The notes under the pieces are model-generated. The model ran no database searches. It was not told where the DNA came from and saw only the letters and a program-made list of their open reading frames with translations. Shown one piece after another: positions 3,068-18,450 of a DNA stretch of 18,562 nt; position 1 is the first letter of the stretch, and each line of letters begins with the position of its first letter. This DNA comes from a virus (lineage: Duplodnaviria > Heunggongvirae > Uroviricota > Caudoviricetes), in the IMG/VR virus record IMGVR_UViG_3300030021_000030, positions 1 to 18,562 of that record; one strand, 5' to 3'. Both the position numbers and the translations under genes were made by a program.

Positions 3068-3179
3068 AACTGAAGTTGCCCTGAAAATGAAATTTTTTTG
3101 CACAACCGCAGAACTTTTCCGCAGGGCATCAGTCTTAATTAGTGCCACTGCTTTTCTTTGATGTCCCCATTTTGTGGAG

Positions 3180-3225
3180 CCCATCAACCCCGCCATTTCG
3201 GTTCAAGGTTGATGGGTTTTTTGTT
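3180..3225 (+). terminator. Rho-independent terminator downstream of ybjL
   Basis: 10-bp perfect stem cccatcaacc (3180-3189) / ggttgatggg (3207-3216) followed by TTTTTT (3217-3222). Confidence 0.6.
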
Positions 3226-3302: not shown

Positions 3303-3521
3303 TCAAAGAGAGAGCGCCACCTGTCCTGATTTCATTGGATGCGGCTGAACCGGATTTGACTCTTTTGGCGTTGCAATCGAACGAACAAAAGTTTCATGGG
3401 TAACAAAAGTATGGCTGCAGTTAATGTTCTGGCACTGGTTGTAACGCTCTTTGGTCAATGAAGATACCTGAAAACTGCTGCGAGTATGGGCGGCACTTCC
3501 ACACAGTGGGCAAATCATCAT
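3303..3521 (-). CDS. ogr: Ogr-family late-gene transcriptional activator (zinc finger), 72 aa
   Basis: MMICPLCGSAAHTRSS...KERYNQCQNINCSHTF: Cys-X2-Cys ... Cys-X4-Cys zinc-binding motif typical of P2 Ogr / P4 Delta. Start moved to the internal Met so the product is 72 aa, the length of P2 Ogr. Confidence 0.85.
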   Translation of the reverse strand: MMICPLCGSAAHTRSSFQVSSLTKERYNQCQNINCSHTFVTHETFVRSIATPKESNPVQPHPMKSGQVALSL

Positions 3522-3611
3522 TTTTCGAGTTCTCCCCATTTTTGCTAAATTCACAATAATGATACCGCATTATTCCATTTTGAAAACTTAAAAGTTCTCC
3601 ATTGCGAAGAA

Positions 3612-10552: not shown

Positions 10553-11119
10553 TCAGGGGGATTCATTGCTCTTATTTGCCGGAAATTTTCTATAAATGGT
10601 AGAAACGCCTACATCAAAAATCAGTGCAATACGCTGTCTTGATTCTCCGGCCTCGAGTAAACGCCCAATCTGTGCCCACTGTTCGGTGGTCAACTTAGGA
10701 CGGCGTCCACCTACTCTGCCTTTGGCACGAGCTGCAGCCAGCCCTGCCATGGTACGTTCAACTATCAGTTCGCGTTCCATTTCAGCCATGGCACCCATGA
10801 CATGAAAAAAGAAACGGCCCATTGGGGTGCTGGTATCAATACTGTCAGTCAGACTTCGGAAATTCACGCCACGCTGACGCAACTCTTCTATCAGCGTAAC
10901 AAGATGCCGCATACTGCGCCCCAACCTGTCCAGCTTCCAGACAACCAGAGTGTCTCCTGCCGATAGTGTCCTGAGCAGTTTTTTAAGCCCCGGTCTGTCG
11001 GACTTAGTGCCACTGATTTTATCCTCAAAAATCCGCTCACATCCCGCGCAGTTCAGTGCATTACGTTGCAAATCGGTGTTCTGGTCATTTGTTGACACGC
11101 GTACATAGCCAATAAGCAT
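10553..11119 (-). CDS. Serine recombinase, DNA invertase of the Gin/Hin/Pin/Cin family
   Basis: Translation from the internal Met: MLIGYVRVSTNDQNTDLQ...VVWKLDRLGRSM...FFFHVMGAMAEMERELIVERT...C-terminal HTH. The catalytic Ser is in the YVRVSTNDQ motif. GGGA Shine-Dalgarno lies upstream of the ATG at 11119. Confidence 0.85.
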   Translation of the reverse strand: MLIGYVRVSTNDQNTDLQRNALNCAGCERIFEDKISGTKSDRPGLKKLLRTLSAGDTLVVWKLDRLGRSMRHLVTLIEELRQRGVNFRSLTDSIDTSTPMGRFFFHVMGAMAEMERELIVERTMAGLAAARAKGRVGGRRPKLTTEQWAQIGRLLEAGESRQRIALIFDVGVSTIYRKFPANKSNESP

Positions 11120-11174
11120 GATCAATCCCCTGAATAAAAACCGTGGATGATGCCAGTTAGCCATTATCTCTGCA

Positions 11175-11200
11175 TTTTCATAAACGTTGGTTTGGGAGAA
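11175..11200. repeat. gix/hix-like 26-bp invertase crossover site (invertase-proximal)
   Basis: TTTTCATAAACGTTGGTTTGGGAGAA fits the Hin/Gin site consensus TTnTCnnAAACCnnGGTTTnnGAnAA and is 20/26 identical to the reverse complement of the site at 12275-12300. Confidence 0.6.
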
Positions 11201-11545
11201 GCGGCGAAAAGGGGTGTGGGCACAGGAGATAATCAGATACCGGATATGGGAGCATTCGCTTCTGGTTCGGGATGGTTCAGGCTACCAGGTGGATATATTG
11301 TTCAGTTTGGCACTTTTGCAGGAAACACGACCCGCTTTATCAGTGGACACTTCCCTATACCATTCCCTAATCAGCCGATGGTTTCAGTCAGTGTTATGTC
11401 TGATGCCGTTCAGTCAGACCCGTCGATTCCTGCCCCGCAGGTTTTGTCTGTAAATTTTGAACATATCAGTAATTCAGCGTGGCGTGTGGCAACCAGTGAT
11501 ATCTCACAGCAATACAGATTCAGTTATATTTCGATAGGACGGTAG
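11201..11545 (+). CDS. Promoterless alternative tail-fibre C-terminal segment (Sv'-like), expressed only after inversion
   Basis: Open frame runs through the gix-like site and encodes ...GWFRLPGGYIVQFGT..., parallel to the current H C-terminus ...GYFELPGGLLLQWGH... There is no plausible independent start; the ORF-track Met at 11147 lies inside the invertase gene region. Confidence 0.6.
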   Translation, partial: AAKRGVGTGDNQIPDMGAFASGSGWFRLPGGYIVQFGTFAGNTTRFISGHFPIPFPNQPMVSVSVMSDAVQSDPSIPAPQVLSVNFEHISNSAWRVATSDISQQYRFSYISIGR

Positions 11546-11547
11546 AA

Positions 11548-11973
11548 ATGCAGAAATATATTTTCAGTGCCGATAAAAATGCGTTTTTCCCTGTGGAGCT
11601 TAAAATCGCTTATCAGGAATCCGGCGAATGGCCCGATGATGGAATCGAAATTGACGACACTGTTGCCGCCGAATTTATGAAGGAAGCACCAGAAGGAAAA
11701 TACAGAGGTGTCATCGACGGAATGCCAGCATGGATTGATATTCCACCACCAACTCATGAGGAACAAATTGCTGCAGCCGAATTGGAAAAGCAGCAATTGA
11801 TTAATCAGGTCAACGAATACATAAACAGTAAGCAGTGGCCTGGCAAATCGGTGCTTGGACGCCTGAAAGATGATGAATTAACGCAGTACAATTTATGGCT
11901 GGATTATCTTGATGCGCTGGAAGCGGTGGACGTATCCAGCGCTCCAGATATTGTTTGGCCCTCCTCAACCTAA
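11548..11973 (+). CDS. Tail fibre assembly chaperone (Tfa/gpG/Mu U family)
   Basis: 141-aa ORF immediately after the Sv' segment (3-nt gap) with the conserved C-terminal Tfa-like region ...QYNLWLDYLDALEAV...; opposite strand to H. Confidence 0.75.
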   Translation: MQKYIFSADKNAFFPVELKIAYQESGEWPDDGIEIDDTVAAEFMKEAPEGKYRGVIDGMPAWIDIPPPTHEEQIAAAELEKQQLINQVNEYINSKQWPGKSVLGRLKDDELTQYNLWLDYLDALEAVDVSSAPDIVWPSST

Positions 11974-12001: not shown

Positions 12002-13336
12002 TTACATCCCGAGTGCAAAATACGTATAGCTGTCAATATTGTTTACCGTGCCGTTTCCATTCCATCCATAAAGGCTAAAGCTAGTTAAGGTATAATTAGA
12101 TGACGTCACATACCGACCATCAGTTGTGATTTTATGCGGCAGTACAATGAACGGAGTGACGTTAAACGACTTCTTAAACTGTATAATGGCACTTGACGCA
12201 TGAATCGAGCCGTGCCCCCATTGCAGCAGCAATCCTCCCGGTAATTCAAAGTACCCATCAGCCTCCAGTAACCGCTCTCCAAAACCAAGGTATGTGAGAA
12301 GACCAGTTACATCCTTTCCACTCAAATTAGTCAGCGTATTGTCCAGCGGTTGTTTACCTGCCAGTGCATTAAGCATTGTCGTGGCAAAGTTCGGGTCATT
12401 CCCCAGCGCCGCCGCCAGTTCGTTCAGTGTATCCAGTGCCGCAGGTGCAGAACCCACCATTGCCGCAATCGCCGATTTCACAAATGCCGTGGTGGCAATT
12501 TGTGTATTGTTGACCGACTGTGCCGCAGTAGGTGCGGTTGGCGTTCCGGTGAGTGCCGGACTCGACAGCGGCGCTTTCAGTGCCAGCGCATTGTTAATGG
12601 TGGTACTGAATTTCGGATCATTGTTAATGGCTGCGGCTATTTCTTTCAGCGTGTCCAGCGTGGCTGGCGCACCATTAATAAGAGCCGTCAGAGCCGCCTG
12701 AACAAACTCGGTGGTCGCAATCTGCGTGGTGTTATTCCCTGCTGCTGGCGTTGGCGCTTTGGGTGTCCCGGTAAACGTCGGACTTTCTTTGGGTGCATAC
12801 TGTGAATGCGGGTCCGGTGCGGCAAGATGTTTTGCCATCAGGTCATCCACGTACACCTTCAACTCCAGTGCTTTGTCATCCACATACTTGCGGGTTGCCA
12901 GCACTACAGCAGGGTCGATTTTCAGGGTGATATTGTCCGTGCTGCTGGTTATCAGCACCATGCGCACGGTCTGGGTGCGCCCGCTGCCTTCAGCCAGTTG
13001 CGGCTTATAGCTTTCCGGGCAGTTGCCCACGGCAATCAATGCCCCGGACTCATCAAACAGGCCCACTTCACGTATCCACCAACCACCCTCGTTTTCAGGG
13101 ATCACCTGTTCAGCAATAATCTGGCTGCTGTTCTGCGGGTCGATATAAAGCATATTCAGCGCAGCCCGGCGTTTCTCATTTACCAGTGCCGTCTGCTTTG
13201 CGTCCGGCGTTGGCAATACTCCGCCGCCATCGCCCACCGCCATATGAGTAATTTTTAGCGGCACACCGAGCGCGGCGGCGCTGGCAAGTTTCGCCGCGCC
13301 AATATCCGTTAGCAGGGTATAAAATTTTGTGCTCAT
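12002..13336 (-). CDS. H: Tail fibre protein (gpH-like): constant N-terminal part plus the currently fused variable C-terminal tip
   Basis: 444-aa ORF with the conserved P2/Mu/P1 tail-fibre N-terminus (MSTKFYTLLTDIGAAKLASAAALG...) and repeated TQIATTEFV / TQIATTAFV collar motifs. The last ~90 codons lie inside the invertible segment. Confidence 0.9.
   Translation of the reverse strand: MSTKFYTLLTDIGAAKLASAAALGVPLKITHMAVGDGGGVLPTPDAKQTALVNEKRRAALNMLYIDPQNSSQIIAEQVIPENEGGWWIREVGLFDESGALIAVGNCPESYKPQLAEGSGRTQTVRMVLITSSTDNITLKIDPAVVLATRKYVDDKALELKVYVDDLMAKHLAAPDPHSQYAPKESPTFTGTPKAPTPAAGNNTTQIATTEFVQAALTALINGAPATLDTLKEIAAAINNDPKFSTTINNALALKAPLSSPALTGTPTAPTAAQSVNNTQIATTAFVKSAIAAMVGSAPAALDTLNELAAALGNDPNFATTMLNALAGKQPLDNTLTNLSGKDVTGLLTYLGFGERLLEADGYFELPGGLLLQWGHGSIHASSAIIQFKKSFNVTPFIVLPHKITTDGRYVTSSNYTLTSFSLYGWNGNGTVNNIDSYTYFALGM
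12275..12300. repeat. gix/hix-like 26-bp invertase crossover site inside H
   Basis: CTCTCCAAAACCAAGGTATGTGAGAA; its reverse complement TTCTCACATACCTTGGTTTTGGAGAG encodes LTYLGFGE of H and matches the site at 11175-11200 in inverted orientation. Confidence 0.6.
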
Positions 13337-14839: not shown

Positions 14840-15185
14840 TCTCTGCTCCTGTTGATACGGAAAGGGAAACAGGCACACCGTTATTACGCCGCCCGGTCAG
14901 CTCCACCACCATTGAACCGTCAAAATTGCTGTTGATGGTGATGGAATCCAGCGTCAGCCGTGGCTCCCAGCGACTCAGCGCCACATACACTGCCGACATG
15001 ACCTGCAGGCGTAATGCCGGATTTTGTGGCTGGTCTATCAGTGTCGACAACAGGGAACCATATTCCCGACGGGCAATGCGGCTACCCTGCGGTGTCAGTA
15101 GAATGTCCCGCACCGACTGACGCAGATGGTCAATATCAGTAATGGCTTTACCGCTGGTATTGTTCATCCCGCTATAAAGCGTCAT
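14826..15185 (-). CDS. W: Baseplate wedge protein gpW-like (GPW/gp25 family)
   Basis: 119-aa ORF between V and J, of the size and position of P2 gpW. Confidence 0.85.
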   Translation of the reverse strand: MTLYSGMNNTSGKAITDIDHLRQSVRDILLTPQGSRIARREYGSLLSTLIDQPQNPALRLQVMSAVYVALSRWEPRLTLDSITINSNFDGSMVVELTGRRNNGVPVSLSVSTGAENGSD

Positions 15186-15760
15186 ACCGGACCTCCAGTC
15201 GTGTCGCCGCCTTTCAGGACGCCAGTATGCTGATGCGCATCAACCACGATCCCGTTAGAACTCATCGCTCCGCCACCCTGGGTAACGCCACCATTGATCA
15301 CCACTTCGCTGTTAATGCGCGTGCGGTCAGCCTCCAGTACAAACTCACTGGTTTTCATGGTGATGTTATCAGCGGCCTCAATGACCATTGATTTGATGCC
15401 CCTGACATACCAGCTCCCGGTGGCGGGTTCGTATTCAAACCAGCCACCGTCAGGATGTTCTGTCACGCAGGCGTCCGCCGACGTCGACGGTGGTGCGAAC
15501 TGATTCGAATAGACAGCGGGCAGCGCAAAGGCAGTCTCCAGATTGCCTCCCAGACTCAGCAGCACCACCTGCTCACCTTCCGATGGTTTCCACCATGTGC
15601 GGGCATTACCCGCGCGCAGCGTCAGCCAGCTGATCCAGTTGGTTTCAAGGTCGCCCGTTTTCACCCGGCAAAGCCAATTCTCCCGGTCCACTTCGGTAAC
15701 TACACCTGTGCGGATCAGATTGGTGATAAGGCGCATGATTTCGGTTAATTGTGCGTTCAT
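15182..15760 (-). CDS. V: Baseplate spike/assembly protein gpV-like (193 aa from the Met at 15760)
   Basis: MNAQLTEIMRLITNLIRTGVVTEVD...RTWWKPSEGEQ... closely parallels the P2 gpV N-terminus; the longer ORF-track start at 15826 is unlikely. Confidence 0.85.
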   Translation of the reverse strand: MNAQLTEIMRLITNLIRTGVVTEVDRENWLCRVKTGDLETNWISWLTLRAGNARTWWKPSEGEQVVLLSLGGNLETAFALPAVYSNQFAPPSTSADACVTEHPDGGWFEYEPATGSWYVRGIKSMVIEAADNITMKTSEFVLEADRTRINSEVVINGGVTQGGGAMSSNGIVVDAHQHTGVLKGGDTTGGPV

Positions 15761-15806
15761 ACCGTATATATTAAACATTTGAAATAATATCTTCCAAACG
15801 GCATAA

Positions 15807-15837
15807 TTGTACTGAGGATGACACAAATGATTATAAA
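15807..15837 (+). promoter_or_regulatory. Candidate sigma70 promoter for the ATPase/TOPRIM cassette, in the divergent V/cassette intergenic region
   Basis: TTGTAC (15807-15812), then TG-n-TTATAAA extended -10-like element (15828-15837); AAGGA Shine-Dalgarno at 15861-15865, 7 nt before the ATG at 15873. Confidence 0.3.
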
Positions 15838-15872
15838 TTTAAGTAGCTCAACTAATAATAAAGGATACATAG

Positions 15873-17129
15873 ATGTATAAAATTCAAAGCGTCACAATTA
15901 ATGGCTTTTGGCAGCGATTAAACTGTTCCTGCTCATTTAATGATGATGTAAATATTATTATAGGCCGAAATGGCACGGGTAAAACAACCTTTATGAACCT
16001 TCTGCACTCAATATTATCCCTTGATTTGGACAGTATTAACAATGCTGATTTCAATAGTGCCGAAATAAAACTTAAAGATAAAAAAAAGACAAAAACAATC
16101 AAAGTCAAAAAACTTGAAAGCGATACATCTCCATTTTCCAAAATAGAATATCAGCTTTCATCTAAAAAACACACAATTCGTTTATTTAACACTGATGATA
16201 GAAGAATATCTCTTAGTTATAGACGTAGAGTGCATGATGAAACAGAAGAACTAAGAACAGAACTAGCAAAACTAGTCTCGCTTTCTTCTTTATCTGTTTA
16301 CAGATTAAGAAATAGTGATGATTTTGAAGTTAAAGATAAATATGGCTCTCGTTTTATCAACCCTGTTGACTATAAGTTATCAGAATTAATACAGGAACTT
16401 ACAAAATATCAACTTGAACTATCCCAGAAAGCCAGAGATATCGCATTAGAACTGCAAAAAGAGGTTCTGGCATCAATACTTTATAGCAAGGAAGATATGG
16501 AGAATCCTGCTTACAACATTAACTTTAACAAAGAGGAAGAAAAACAAAACCTCCTTAATGCATACACACAGTTAAATGCTATTGATCAAAACATTCGTAA
16601 AAAAATCAGCTTTCATGTTGAAACAATTAATAATACCATTTCGGAATTAAAGAATAAAAGTGAAAGTGGCTTTGATATTCGTTCGATCGAAGCATTGAGA
16701 AAAACACAAAAAATAATCAAAATGTCATTAACTTCAAAAGAGAAAACATCAAAAATATTTTCTCCAATAGAACAATTCTTAAGCATACTAAGAAATTTTA
16801 TCACCGATAAAGAATTTCATTTTCAATCGGGATTGTTAGTCATAAATAACACCTATGGGCCAATAGTTTTAGAAAGTTTATCTTCTGGTGAAAAACAACT
16901 GCTAATTTTATTCATTGAGACCCTCTTACAAAGAGGGCAACAATATATTTTCCTAACTGATGAGCCTGAGCTTTCCTTACATATTCAATGGCAAAGAAAT
17001 ATTATCCCTGCCATAAAAAAATTAAATCCTAATGCACAAATTATTGCTGCAACCCATTCTCCTGAAGTTGCATCTAAATATAAAAACGCCATTTTCAATA
17101 TGGAGAGATTAGTCAATGCTAATCAATGA
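15873..17129 (+). CDS. ABC/SMC-like ATPase (AAA_15/AAA_21-type), 418 aa; candidate AriA-like component of a PARIS-type defence system
   Basis: Walker A GRNGTGKTT (aa 31-39), ABC signature LSSGEKQ (aa 336-342), Walker B YIFLTDEPE (aa 358-366), H-loop AATHS (aa 392-396). A Lys/Glu-rich, probably coiled-coil insertion separates Walker A from the signature. The region is strongly AT-rich relative to the flanking phage. Confidence 0.8.
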   Translation: MYKIQSVTINGFWQRLNCSCSFNDDVNIIIGRNGTGKTTFMNLLHSILSLDLDSINNADFNSAEIKLKDKKKTKTIKVKKLESDTSPFSKIEYQLSSKKHTIRLFNTDDRRISLSYRRRVHDETEELRTELAKLVSLSSLSVYRLRNSDDFEVKDKYGSRFINPVDYKLSELIQELTKYQLELSQKARDIALELQKEVLASILYSKEDMENPAYNINFNKEEEKQNLLNAYTQLNAIDQNIRKKISFHVETINNTISELKNKSESGFDIRSIEALRKTQKIIKMSLTSKEKTSKIFSPIEQFLSILRNFITDKEFHFQSGLLVINNTYGPIVLESLSSGEKQLLILFIETLLQRGQQYIFLTDEPELSLHIQWQRNIIPAIKKLNPNAQIIAATHSPEVASKYKNAIFNMERLVNANQ

Positions 17130-17973
17130 TTCTAATGCAGAAAACTTTTCTTGGTCTAATGAAGCGGAAAATGTGATCAGTTTATTTTATGATGCTGATA
17201 TTATGGTCTATGTTGAAGGTGAAGATGACATTGCTTTTTGGGAAATAATTTTTAAAAAAAATGGTCGTTTTAATGTAGAAGTTCAAGATGTTGGTGGATG
17301 TGAAGCTTTACAACCATATATCGAAAAAATAACCTCAGGAGAAATAAACGCCATAGTTGCCAGAGATTCGGATCTAAACCATTTTTCTGACAACATAGTA
17401 AAGCATACAAATATTATTTACACAAAGGGATATTCAATAGAAAACACAATCATTGATGAAAAAATCATATCACACATACTCAAAAACACAGGCCGTTTTT
17501 GCACGAAAAAAATGCAGGAAATAGATGTGGAAAATTGGCTTTCTAATTTCTATAGCAACATTGAGAACTTAATAATACTAGATATTCACAATCATTTAAA
17601 TAAATTAGGATGCTCCGTAATTGGTGATTCCTGTGATCGTTTTATGCAATCAAGAAATTCATACAATATATGCAAGGAAAAAATAGATGAATATATCAAT
17701 AGACTACCTGAATCGTTTACTACTAATGGTTTAGCAGAAAAAAACAACATTCAATTCCCAGAAAATACATCTATAAATCATTGGGTGAAAGGGCACTTTC
17801 TTTTCTCAGCATCATTAAGATTTATAACAAACTTTTTGGCATCCATCAATAAAAAAACCTCTATATCCAAGGATAGTTTTTACGCAAACATCTTGTCTGC
17901 ATTTGAGATTTTTTATACAGAAGAACATGCTGATTATAGTTATTACAATCAAAAGATAGGGGCCATCACATAA
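17116..17973 (+). CDS. TOPRIM/DUF4435-like putative nuclease, 285 aa; candidate AriB-like effector
   Basis: N-terminal VYVEGEDD (conserved Glu, aa 34) and ARDSD (DxD, aa 84-86) resemble TOPRIM metal-binding motifs of OLD/DUF4435 proteins. The start overlaps the ATPase stop by 14 nt, with a GAGAGA Shine-Dalgarno inside the upstream gene. Confidence 0.7.
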   Translation: MLINDSNAENFSWSNEAENVISLFYDADIMVYVEGEDDIAFWEIIFKKNGRFNVEVQDVGGCEALQPYIEKITSGEINAIVARDSDLNHFSDNIVKHTNIIYTKGYSIENTIIDEKIISHILKNTGRFCTKKMQEIDVENWLSNFYSNIENLIILDIHNHLNKLGCSVIGDSCDRFMQSRNSYNICKEKIDEYINRLPESFTTNGLAEKNNIQFPENTSINHWVKGHFLFSASLRFITNFLASINKKTSISKDSFYANILSAFEIFYTEEHADYSYYNQKIGAIT

Positions 17974-17982
17974 AAAAATAAA

Positions 17983-18002
17983 GGCTGGCTTTTATGCCAG
18001 CC
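17983..18002 (-). terminator. Hairpin terminator at the 3' end of S, preventing late-operon read-through into the cassette
   Basis: ggctggc (17983-17989) / gccagcc (17996-18002) stem with 6-nt loop. On the minus strand it is followed by TTTATTTTTT; on the plus strand it directly follows the cassette stop codon. Confidence 0.5.
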
Positions 18003-18450
18003 AATCCCCAGAAAATAAATTCATAATGAATATTTTTCGAATTAATTTTTCACATCCATTTAATCCAAGCAATTTTCTCTCTGCGTAACGGATCTCAGGT
18101 CCTTTGCGGCTGACGCGATCACGTAGGCCGTAATGGTGAACGCGGGCAATGCGCTGTACCTTACCTTCAAACTGTACGCTGGCAGTATCCGCGCTGGCGG
18201 CAGTTTTCAGGTATTTTGTAGTGCGCAGCTTTGTAAACATCTGACGTTTGATCCGCCCCTTTTTACTGCGTGCTGTTACCCGTCGCGGTTCATAGCTGCT
18301 GCCGTCAGGGTTGCGCTGCATCCTGATATTATGCTGCTGTGTCCGGCGCAGTTCCTGCGACAGCTGGCGCATCATGCGGCTTCTTGCGGCTGGTTCTAGA
18401 TTCGCCAGCAAGGCACTCAGCCAGTCGTCCACCTTCTGCAGTTCAGCCAC
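17992..18450 (-). CDS. S: Tail completion / virion morphogenesis protein gpS-like, GTG start
   Basis: 152-aa ORF resembling the phage virion morphogenesis (P2 gpS) family, located upstream of V as in P2; start codon GTG. Confidence 0.75.
   Translation of the reverse strand: MAELQKVDDWLSALLANLEPAARSRMMRQLSQELRRTQQHNIRMQRNPDGSSYEPRRVTARSKKGRIKRQMFTKLRTTKYLKTAASADTASVQFEGKVQRIARVHHYGLRDRVSRKGPEIRYAERKLLGLNGCEKLIRKIFIMNLFSGDWLA

What the first reader, a model, noticed from the sequence alone, without database searches (positions are those of the whole stretch)
15761..17991. Compositional island precisely replacing the P2 orf30-equivalent position between S and V
The phage structural genes are GC-rich, whereas roughly 15761..17991 is visibly AT-rich with A/T homopolymer runs and Lys/Asn/Ile-rich proteins. 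The island is bounded on one side by the V start codon and a 112-bp divergent promoter region, and on the other by a hairpin at the S stop. This looks like a moron/defence island acquired horizontally at a phage accessory hotspot, insulated from late-operon transcription and probably expressed from the lysogen.
Basis: seen in the sequence. Interest (0 to 1): 0.6.

Follow-up and report, generated by a model that had tools for sequence, protein, structure and literature searches.

The report
PARIS defence genes in P2-like prophage
The AT-rich island between tail genes S and V of this P2/186-like prophage is a two-gene PARIS-type anti-phage system (AriA ATPase plus AriB nuclease) sitting in a known cargo slot of these phages, so it is a real but ordinary feature.

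Summary
Window 15761-17991 has 30.7% GC against 52.6% for the rest of the window, with GC3 of 0.25-0.27 against 0.53-0.65. It has 15 A/T runs of 6 or more bases, against none in the 3.5-kb left flank. The AT-rich tract runs on to about 18078, which is about 27 codons into gene S.

The island holds two overlapping + strand genes. The first (15873-17129) matches AriA and the second (17116-17973) matches AriB/DUF4435. Support comes from PADLOC and Pfam profiles, from invariant catalytic residues, and from AlphaFold models whose best PDB matches are the AriA and AriB chains of the solved PARIS complex.

The island occupies the same slot as P2 orf30, in the same antisense orientation. A terminator hairpin lies on the S side. 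A TGT-N12-ACA late-activator box and a sigma-70-like promoter lie on the V side.

The slot is a real exchange hotspot. Most related E. coli prophages have it empty. Others carry FRG, DUF2971, DUF6216 or PcfJ genes, Septu-like ATPases, EcoRII, SIR2 or KAP NTPase genes.

The PARIS system, the orf30 region as a site of horizontal transfer, and defence hotspots within P2 tail genes are all published. This is a new, uncharacterised member of a known kind. Interest is low.

The parts
15182..15760 (-). gpV, the baseplate spike. It is the conserved left anchor of the hotspot.
   Evidence: Pfam Phage_base_V 1.3e-17 and the Apex motif. The identical sequence is annotated as a 579-nt V gene in RefSeq. 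Homology with empty-site and other-cargo prophages runs up to the ATG and stops immediately after it.
15808..15825 (.). TGT-N12-ACA dyad, the presumed Ogr/late-activator box of the P_V promoter. It lies 48-65 nt upstream of the V ATG.
   Evidence: Read directly from the sequence. A TTGT..(A/T)ACAAA element sits at the same distance in all seven E. coli S-V variants aligned, although the surrounding sequence differs. P2 has an annotated activator-binding site 42-69 nt upstream of V. An Ogr/Delta gene is present in the window at 3303-3554.
15779..15807 (+). Predicted sigma-70 promoter for ariAB: TTGAAA, 17-nt spacer, CATAAT.
   Evidence: It is the best promoter-like match in 15600-18200 (10 of 12). 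Both hexamers are identical in the 77%-identical allele L007, while only 9 of 17 spacer bases match. This is a consensus match only. The number of promoter-like sites in the region is no higher than in shuffled sequence.
15873..17129 (+). ariA: an ABC/SMC-type ATPase of 418 aa, the predicted sensor and scaffold.
   Evidence: PADLOC AriA 7.6e-39; Pfam AAA_15 7e-22 and AAA_21 1.9e-19. PDB sequence search: AriA 8ux9/8v45, E 1.5e-20. AF2 model with pLDDT 82.5: the top 15 PDB fold hits are all AriA (E about 1e-18, TM 0.51-0.66; the first 14 are 0.58-0.66), ahead of retron PtuA. Walker A (G31, K37, T38), signature S337-Q342, Walker B D363/E364 and H395 are invariant in 35 homologues. AGGA lies 7 nt before the ATG.
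17116..17973 (+). ariB: a DUF4435/TOPRIM nuclease of 285 aa, the predicted effector. It overlaps ariA by 14 nt.
   Evidence: Pfam DUF4435 5.3e-27 (95.5 bits; cutoff 27); PADLOC AriB 4.1e-22. AF2 model with pLDDT 91.8: the best PDB fold hits are the AriB chains 8ux9_A and 8v46_D (prob 1.0, TM 0.55-0.57), followed by OLD nuclease C-terminal regions. E34, D37, D38, D84, D86 and E109 are invariant in 37 homologues. GGAGAG lies 8 nt before the ATG.
17983..18002 (.). Hairpin GGCTGGC-N6-GCCAGCC. On the minus strand it is followed by TTTATTTTTTT, which makes it an intrinsic terminator after S. It also ends the ariAB unit.
   Evidence: Terminator scan, minus strand. RNA folding: -15.8 kcal/mol, z -4.7 on the plus strand; -15.4 kcal/mol, z -2.2 on the minus strand. 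A related hairpin follows ariB in every other genomic context examined. P2 has an annotated O-operon terminator at the same place.
17992..18078 (-). AT-rich 3' end of gene S (about the last 27 codons), which travels with the cargo.
   Evidence: The 40-nt windows starting at 18000, 18020 and 18040 have GC 0.20-0.30. The gpS sequences of seven variants are near-identical up to ..YAER(K/R)LLG and then differ with each cargo type. The window and its 77% allele have related tails.
17992..18450 (-). gpS, the tail completion / virion morphogenesis protein. It is the conserved right anchor of the hotspot.
   Evidence: Pfam Phage_tail_S 1.8e-37.

Best explanation
The island is a PARIS-type (AriA/AriB) abortive-infection defence system. 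A P2/186-like prophage carries it as non-essential cargo in the S-V slot, the position of P2 orf30.

Shown here:
- Two translationally coupled genes encode an AriA-fold ABC ATPase and an AriB-fold DUF4435/TOPRIM protein, each with intact catalytic residues.
- The pair lies antisense to the late tail genes.
- The slot is empty or holds unrelated cargo in most relatives.

Inferred by homology to the E. coli B185 system (PMC9122126, PMC11464382):
- AriA forms a hexameric scaffold that holds AriB inactive.
- A protein of an infecting phage (for B185, anti-restriction proteins such as T7 Ocr) binds AriA in an ATP-dependent way and releases AriB.
- Free AriB dimerises and cuts host tRNA (tRNA-Lys for B185). 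This stops translation and aborts the infection.

Inferred from sequence features:
- In the lysogen the pair is transcribed from its own sigma-70 promoter at 15779-15807.
- The hairpin at 17983-18002 stops late transcription coming out of S from running antisense into ariB.
- The Ogr-dependent P_V promoter restarts late transcription at V.

The cassette most likely arrived, and is exchanged, by homologous recombination within the conserved V start and the body of S. No flanking repeats or recombinase genes are present.
For: - Family assignment: PADLOC AriA 7.6e-39 and AriB 4.1e-22. Pfam AAA_15/AAA_21 and DUF4435 are all above their curated cutoffs.
- PDB sequence match to AriA: 1.5e-20, against 9.5e-9 for the next family.
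- Fold: both AF2 models have the PARIS chains as their best PDB matches.
- Catalytic residues are invariant.
- The genes overlap by 14 nt and each has a Shine-Dalgarno sequence.
- Cargo status: the GC and GC3 break, the 68-bp empty site L003, and alternative cargos at the same site.
- Mobility: the same ariAB clade (76-81% identity in AriA, 64-66% in AriB) lies in three other contexts. These are the portal-gpA hotspot of a Serratia marcescens P2-like prophage, a conjugative element in Salmonella, and a non-phage chromosomal site in S. rubidaea. All copies have 31-34% GC.
- Architecture equals P2 S-terminator-orf30-activator site-V.
- No border repeats were found.
- Mechanism of the type system: PMC9122126 and PMC11464382.
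Against: - No experiment bears on this particular allele.
- It is distant from the characterised B185 proteins: 19-22% identity for AriA and 13-15% for AriB in the structural alignments. AriB gave no PDB sequence hit at E <= 0.01. The trigger, the RNA target and even hexamer formation are therefore extrapolated.
- AriA is 418 aa against 464 aa in B185.
- The promoter is a consensus match, and such matches are no more frequent in this region than in shuffled sequence.
- On the plus strand the hairpin lacks a T tract, so termination of ariAB itself is uncertain.
- One tested PARIS (E. coli O42) was silent from its native promoter.
Confidence: 0.85

Rival explanations
1. It is a different member of the OLD-like ABC-ATPase plus TOPRIM group, working like OLD, Gabija, AbiL or MADS. 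The effector would then cut or nick DNA rather than tRNA, and the sensing logic would differ from PARIS.
For: The ATPase also scores against many PtuA, GajA and MAD3 profiles (NCBIfam PtuA 1.4e-18 and MADS3 1.4e-6, both far below their cutoffs). After AriB, the next fold matches of the nuclease are OLD C-terminal regions. Identity to the characterised AriB is only 13-15%.
Against: The best profile, sequence and fold matches of both proteins are AriA and AriB, by wide margins. The nuclease matches DUF4435, the PARIS-type partner. It does not match RloB, DUF4276 or TOPRIM-Old, the domains listed for the other ABC ATPase-containing systems in the tree of PMC11464382. There is no helicase, HNH, methylase or reverse transcriptase partner in the island.
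Confidence: 0.09
2. It is mainly an addiction or stabilisation (toxin-antitoxin-like) module that keeps the prophage in the chromosome, with AriB as toxin and AriA as antitoxin. Phage defence would be secondary or absent.
For: Several degraded copies of this prophage at the same chromosomal site have lost tail or head genes but keep ariAB intact (L002, L018, L019). One set of PDB depositors names AriA an 'antitoxin'. The Pfam AAA_21 description mentions a type IV TA system.
Against: For the B185 system, deleting either gene was non-toxic and abolished defence, which excludes a classical TA system (PMC9122126). Retention in decaying prophages is equally expected for any gene that benefits the host.
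Confidence: 0.04
3. It is decaying or silent cargo, or a misannotated transporter ATPase, with no current function.
For: A close homologue is labelled 'hemin importer ATP-binding subunit' in one record. The allele is rare: 3 near-identical copies in 5426 complete E. coli genomes.
Against: Both reading frames are intact and all catalytic residues are conserved. Homologues at 55-86% identity are full-length across many genera. There is no membrane partner. The paired DUF4435 gene is always adjacent.
Confidence: 0.02

Closest known systems
PARIS (AriA/AriB) of E. coli B185, encoded in a P4-like satellite hotspot (PMC9122126; structures 8UX9, 8V45-8V49; PMC11464382)
   Same: It is a two-gene ABC ATPase plus DUF4435/TOPRIM cassette. 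The best sequence, profile and fold matches of both proteins are to this system. Equivalent catalytic residues are conserved (K37 with B185 K39, E364 with E393, E34 with E26). It is carried by a mobile element of the P2/P4 world.
   Different: Identity in the structural alignments is only 19-22% for AriA and 13-15% for AriB. AriA is 46 aa shorter. The system sits in a P2/186-like prophage between tail genes S and V, not next to the cos site of a P4 satellite. Its trigger, target and activity are untested.
P2 orf30 locus, one of the three P2 regions regarded as horizontally acquired (TO region, Z/fun, orf30; PMC3091744, PMC6823313)
   Same: Same position, and same antisense orientation relative to the late genes. 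It is flanked in the same way by the O-operon terminator and the P_V activator site.
   Different: P2 orf30 is a single 261-aa protein with no Pfam or PADLOC match. Here the slot holds a recognisable two-gene defence system.
P2 defence hotspots: gpA-gpQ (old/tin), Z/fun, and 'within the tail genes / downstream of GpL' (PMC9122126, PMC9519451, bioRxiv 10.1101/2024.10.15.618418, PMC13586616)
   Same: It is a variable slot between conserved core genes, filled with AT-rich defence cargo that is swapped quickly. AAA_15/AAA_21 + DUF4435 pairs are already tabulated for the gpA-gpQ hotspot. A relative at 80% (AriA) and 65% (AriB) identity lies in that hotspot in Serratia.
   Different: The S-V slot is not the one dissected experimentally in those papers. 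The texts I read name only two tail-region hotspots: the Z/fun locus, and a hotspot 'downstream of GpL'. The S-V interval is not resolved in them.
Septu (PtuAB) and retron-associated PtuA ATPases
   Same: A related AAA_15/21 ABC ATPase. PtuA-like cassettes occupy the same S-V slot in other species.
   Different: Their partner is an HNH nuclease, not DUF4435. The fold match is much weaker (TM about 0.4 against 0.6-0.66).

Membership tests
PARIS (AriA/AriB) | An ABC-type ATPase of the AAA_15/AAA_21 family that matches AriA better than other defence ATPases | tested here: met
   PADLOC AriA 7.6e-39 against the best PtuA at 2.5e-23. PDB sequence search: AriA 1.5e-20 against PtuA 9.5e-9. Fold: the top 15 hits are all AriA.
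PARIS (AriA/AriB) | An adjacent DUF4435 (TOPRIM) protein as the only partner, or a fusion of the two | tested here: met
   Pfam DUF4435 at 95.5 bits (cutoff 27) and PADLOC AriB 4.1e-22. The genes overlap by 14 nt and the island holds no other ORF with a family match. The fold best matches AriB 8ux9_A and 8v46_D.
PARIS (AriA/AriB) | Intact ATPase motifs (Walker A Lys, Walker B Glu) and TOPRIM acidic residues, which defence requires in B185 | tested here: met
   K37, D363/E364 and H395 are invariant in 35 homologues. E34, D37, D38, D84, D86 and E109 are invariant in 37 homologues. The requirement in B185 is reported in PMC9122126 and PMC11464382.
PARIS (AriA/AriB) | An AriA hexamer that sequesters three AriB monomers | not testable with these tools
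   Only monomer models could be made. No multimer prediction or biochemistry was available.
PARIS (AriA/AriB) | Phage protection through trigger-induced release of AriB and tRNA cleavage (abortive infection) | not testable with these tools
   This needs plaque assays, trigger co-expression and RNA blots.
P2 orf30-position accessory (moron) locus | Lies between tail-completion gene S and baseplate gene V, flanked by the O-operon terminator and the P_V activator site | tested here: met
   P2 annotation compared with the window features.
P2 orf30-position accessory (moron) locus | Variable or absent among close relatives, with composition unlike the phage backbone | tested here: met
   Empty site. 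In the E. coli sample, 32 sites were empty and 13 occupied. In other species, 10 were empty and 20 occupied, all with GC 0.32-0.44 against 0.56-0.61 for V.
AbiL / MADS3-4 / Gabija / class 1 OLD (other ABC ATPase + TOPRIM systems) | A TOPRIM partner of the RloB, DUF4276 or TOPRIM-Old type, or an ATPase-TOPRIM fusion with a helicase or methylase partner | tested here: not met
   The nuclease matches only DUF4435, plus a sub-threshold DUF3226 hit, and only AriB/AriAB in PADLOC. No extra genes are present.

The most novel reading that the evidence does not exclude
The most novel reading has three parts.

(1) The S-V exchange unit is more than a passive slot. Each cassette brings its own P_V late promoter, with an Ogr box kept at a fixed distance, and its own C-terminal ~27 codons of the tail-completion protein S.

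(2) In this cassette the predicted ariAB promoter (15779-15807) lies back-to-back with, and inside the footprint of, the Ogr-activated P_V promoter. Activating the prophage's own late genes would then shut PARIS off by promoter occlusion. This would spare the phage from its own abortive-infection system.

(3) AriB diverges faster than AriA in every pair compared (for example 85% against 71%, and 63% against 43% identity). This may mean the clade has changed its RNA target.
Probability: 0.2. Interest if true: 0.5.

Novelty: new member of a known kind. Interest (0 to 1): 0.2.

Why it matters
It adds one uncharacterised and fairly divergent PARIS allele to the catalogue. It also shows that the classical P2 orf30 position is a working defence slot. 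In related prophages across Enterobacterales the same slot holds PARIS, PtuA-like ATPase cassettes (Septu-like), EcoRII, SIR2 or KAP NTPase genes, and several families of unknown function. That makes the S-V slot a convenient place to mine for new anti-phage genes. The empty-site comparison also gives exact cassette borders for cloning. None of this changes current understanding of PARIS or of P2 hotspots.

Tried and rejected
- Transposition or site-specific insertion. No direct or inverted repeats lie at the island borders, and there is no recombinase in the island. The only border-related repeat is a 25-nt, 84%-identical match between ariB 17752-17776 and the S tail 18002-18026. In AT-rich sequence this is probably chance.
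- A structured RNA in the island. Rfam at gathering thresholds found nothing there. The only hit in the window is RybB at 3147-3225.
- AriB in the PDB by sequence. No hit at E <= 0.01. The relationship needed a structure prediction and a fold search.
- NCBIfam. There is no model for AriB, and the ATPase gave only sub-cutoff hits.
- The phage collection (INPHARED). It contains no copy of the island; only the first ~60 nt, in gene V, match.
- Long inverted repeats for the tail-fibre invertase region. None were found, so that side observation stays open.
- Matching this allele to the experimentally tested PARIS-1 (E. coli O42). I found the entry in the supplement but did not retrieve the sequences for comparison.
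Full report
**1. Observation**

A sliding-window profile shows GC falling from about 0.55 to about 0.30 between roughly 15700 and 18050, and nowhere else so sharply.

- The stated interval 15761-17991 has GC 0.307, against 0.526 for the rest of the window.
- The two ORFs inside it have GC3 of 0.248 and 0.266. Eleven prophage tail genes have 0.53-0.65.
- The island has 15 A/T runs of 6 or more bases in 2231 nt. The 3561-nt left flank has none.
- The two proteins are 35% and 41% K+N+I+F+Y, against 13-18% for four tail proteins.

One refinement is needed. The AT-rich tract continues past the S stop codon to about 18078. The 40-nt windows starting at 18000, 18020 and 18040 have GC of only 0.20-0.30.

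**2. What is in the island**

Only two long ORFs are present, both on the + strand: 15873-17129 (418 aa) and 17116-17973 (285 aa). They overlap by 14 nt, and each is preceded by a Shine-Dalgarno sequence.

*The first protein (AriA-like).*
- It has Walker A, ABC signature, Walker B and H-loop motifs.
- It matches PADLOC AriA (7.6e-39) better than any PtuA, GajA or MAD3 model.
- It matches Pfam AAA_15 and AAA_21.
- In the PDB it matches AriA of the PARIS complex by sequence (1.5e-20; the next family scores 9.5e-9).
- Its AlphaFold model (pLDDT 82.5) has AriA chains as its top 15 fold matches (E about 1e-18, TM 0.51-0.66; the first 14 are 0.58-0.66). Retron PtuA and Rad50 follow, with Septu PtuA further down, at TM about 0.33-0.48.

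*The second protein (AriB-like).*
- It matches Pfam DUF4435 (95.5 bits, cutoff 27) and PADLOC AriB (4.1e-22).
- It has no sequence match in the PDB.
- Its model (pLDDT 91.8) has the two deposited AriB chains as its only confident fold matches (prob 1.0, TM 0.55-0.57, 13-15% identity). OLD nuclease C-terminal regions come next.

*Conserved residues.* In alignments of 35 and 37 homologues, the ATPase motifs (G31, K37, T38, S337-Q342, D363, E364, H395) and the TOPRIM acidic residues (E34, D37, D38, D84, D86, E109) are invariant. The B185 counterparts K39, E393 and E26 are needed for ATP-dependent trigger recognition, ATP hydrolysis and defence, respectively (PMC11464382, PMC9122126).

**3. Surroundings**

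The flanking genes are gpV (15182-15760, minus strand; Phage_base_V) and gpS (17992-18450, minus strand; Phage_tail_S). They sit in a tail module: D, U, T, E, FII, FI, an invertase/tail-fibre region, then H, I, J, W, V. The prophage abuts the host genes ybjC, grxA, ybjM, ybjL and the sRNA gene rybB. A 100% identical copy of the island is in E. coli EC596, annotated only as 'AAA family ATPase' and 'DUF4435 domain-containing protein'.

In phage P2 itself the annotated order is S, putative rho-independent terminator of the O operon, orf30 on the opposite strand, activator-binding site of pV, V. The window has the same layout.

- After S lies a 7-bp G+C-rich hairpin (17983-18002). On the minus strand it is followed by TTTATTTTTTT.
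- The cargo is antisense to the late genes.
- A perfect TGT-N12-ACA dyad (15808-15825) lies 48-65 nt upstream of the V ATG. This compares with 42-69 nt for the P2 site.
- The window also encodes an Ogr/Delta activator (3303-3554).
- The best sigma-70-like match in the region (TTGAAA-17-CATAAT, 15779-15807, + strand) lies 65 nt upstream of ariA.
- Both promoter hexamers are identical in a 77%-identical allele, although about half the spacer bases differ.

**4. Is it a hotspot?**

*E. coli.* The V/S flanks occur in about 1046 of 5426 complete genomes, but only 12 carry this island (3 near-identical copies, 9 at about 77% nucleotide identity). At least five more carry a third, much more divergent AAA+DUF4435 pair at the same place.

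In an evenly spaced sample of 60 hits:
- 32 sites were empty (a 68-bp S-V spacer, L003);
- 13 were occupied, by PARIS, FRG, DUF6216, DUF2971, PcfJ plus a hypothetical protein, or several unannotated proteins;
- 15 matched one flank only.

FRG and DUF2971 match the PADLOC candidate families PDC-S15 and PDC-S31. P2 orf30 matches nothing.

*Other species.* Thirty other species had both S and V. Ten sites were empty and 20 held 0.7-3.9 kb of cargo, always AT-rich (GC 0.32-0.44, against 0.56-0.61 for V). Of the 28 cargo ORFs, 27 were antisense to V. The cargo included:
- PtuA-like ATPases with a small partner (three loci);
- a PARIS pair ([Erwinia] mediterraneensis);
- EcoRII plus a C5 methylase;
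- SIR2, KAP NTPase, DUF5677, DUF6216 and DUF2971 proteins.

**5. Borders and mode of exchange**

Alignment of seven E. coli variants shows that homology on the left ends immediately after the V start codon. Every variant nevertheless keeps a TTGT-N12-ACAA element at the same distance. On the right, homology resumes only at about 18078. The gpS proteins are near-identical up to ..YAER(K/R)LLG, and then carry a different C-terminal tail of about 20 residues for each cargo type.

The exchanged unit is therefore P_V promoter + cargo + terminator + the 3' end of S. The island is not 'precisely' bounded by the S stop. No border repeats and no recombinase were found, so homologous recombination in the conserved flanks is the likely route. 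This is an inference.

**6. Mobility of this ariAB clade**

Relatives with 76-81% AriA identity and 64-66% AriB identity lie in three other contexts:
- the portal-gpA (old/tin) hotspot of a Serratia marcescens P2-like prophage;
- next to MobA, TraD and shufflon genes in a Salmonella conjugative element;
- a non-phage chromosomal site in Serratia rubidaea.

All copies have 31-34% GC, and each is followed by a related hairpin. Decaying copies of the window's prophage keep ariAB while losing tail or head genes. AriB diverges faster than AriA in every pair compared.

**7. Mechanism**

The mechanism is inferred by homology to the B185 system (PMC9122126, PMC11464382). I assign it about 0.85 for family and role. 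Confidence is lower for the details, since this allele shares only 13-22% identity with B185 in the structural alignments.

- AriA hexamers hold AriB inactive.
- A phage protein binds AriA in an ATP-dependent manner.
- AriB is released, dimerises and cleaves host tRNA.
- Translation stops and the infection aborts.

Expression from the lysogen and insulation by the terminator are plausible from sequence features but untested.

**8. Comparison with what is known, and novelty**

- PARIS is an established system, detected in 5.2% of prokaryotic genomes.
- AAA_15/21 + DUF4435 pairs are already listed for the P2 gpA-gpQ hotspot.
- The orf30 region has long been named as one of three horizontally acquired regions of P2-like phages (PMC3091744; PMC6823313).
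- A 2026 survey reports defence hotspots 'within the tail genes' and 'downstream of GpL' (PMC13586616).

Standard defence-annotation tools would label this island. It is a new, uncharacterised member of a known kind in a known type of location.

The modestly new points are the exact cassette borders, the cargo-linked S tail and P_V promoter, and the breadth of cargo at S-V across species. Interest is 0.2.

Noticed in passing
window 17992-18078 (3' end of gene S); L003-L008: The last ~27 codons of the tail-completion gene S are AT-rich and differ with each cargo type. The rest of gpS is near-identical. The cassette swap therefore rewrites the end of an essential structural gene. The tails keep a similar hydrophobic pattern.
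   Followed up: partly
window 15761-15830; L003-L008: Sequence upstream of V diverges right after the ATG in every cargo variant, yet a TGT-N12-ACA-type late-activator box is kept at the same distance. The predicted ariAB promoter (15779-15807) lies back-to-back inside the P_V promoter region, so the two may be mutually exclusive.
   Followed up: partly
window 10553-11973: A serine DNA invertase (10553-11164, minus strand; Resolvase 6e-53) lies next to a + strand tail-fibre C-terminal fragment (11147-11545) and a tail-fibre assembly gene (11548-11973). All have lower GC (0.45-0.50). This looks like an invertible host-range switch at the Z/fun-equivalent position. The expressed fibre gene H (12002-13336, minus strand) has no assembly gene downstream on its own strand. 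No long inverted repeats were found.
   Followed up: partly
window 3147-3225 (+): The RybB sRNA gene (Rfam 105 bits) lies between host ybjL and the prophage ogr gene (3303-3554). The prophage end is therefore within about 80 nt of rybB. In EC596 the other prophage end lies beside rcdA. The attachment site was not defined.
   Followed up: no
L002 (EC596), L018, L019: Degraded copies of the same prophage at the ybjL site keep an intact ariAB pair. They have lost large parts of the tail module (a gpD gene or fragment joined directly to the tail-fibre region or to ariA; U fused to V) or of the head/lysis module (lysC or lysA joined to gpA).
   Followed up: partly
L014-L016 (Serratia marcescens), L010/L011 (Salmonella), L009 (Serratia rubidaea): The same ariAB clade (76-81% AriA, 64-66% AriB identity) lies in three other contexts: the other P2 hotspot (portal-gpA), a conjugative element, and a plain chromosomal site. 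It always has 31-34% GC and is always followed by a related hairpin.
   Followed up: yes
window ariA/ariB against L007, L012, L009, L011, L016: AriB, the effector, is less conserved than AriA, the sensor, in all 15 pairwise comparisons (for example 85 against 71%, and 63 against 43%). Three distinct alleles of the pair occupy the same S-V slot in E. coli.
   Followed up: partly
L035-L067 (S-V intervals in 20 other species): The S-V cargo elsewhere includes PtuA-like ATPase pairs, EcoRII plus a Dcm-type methylase, SIR2, KAP NTPase, DUF5677, DUF6216, DUF2971 and several proteins with no family. Of 28 cargo ORFs, 27 are antisense to the late genes.
   Followed up: partly
window 17752-17776 and 18002-18026: A 25-nt direct repeat, 84% identical, links a piece of ariB coding sequence and the AT-rich S tail. 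In such AT-rich sequence it is probably chance.
   Followed up: no
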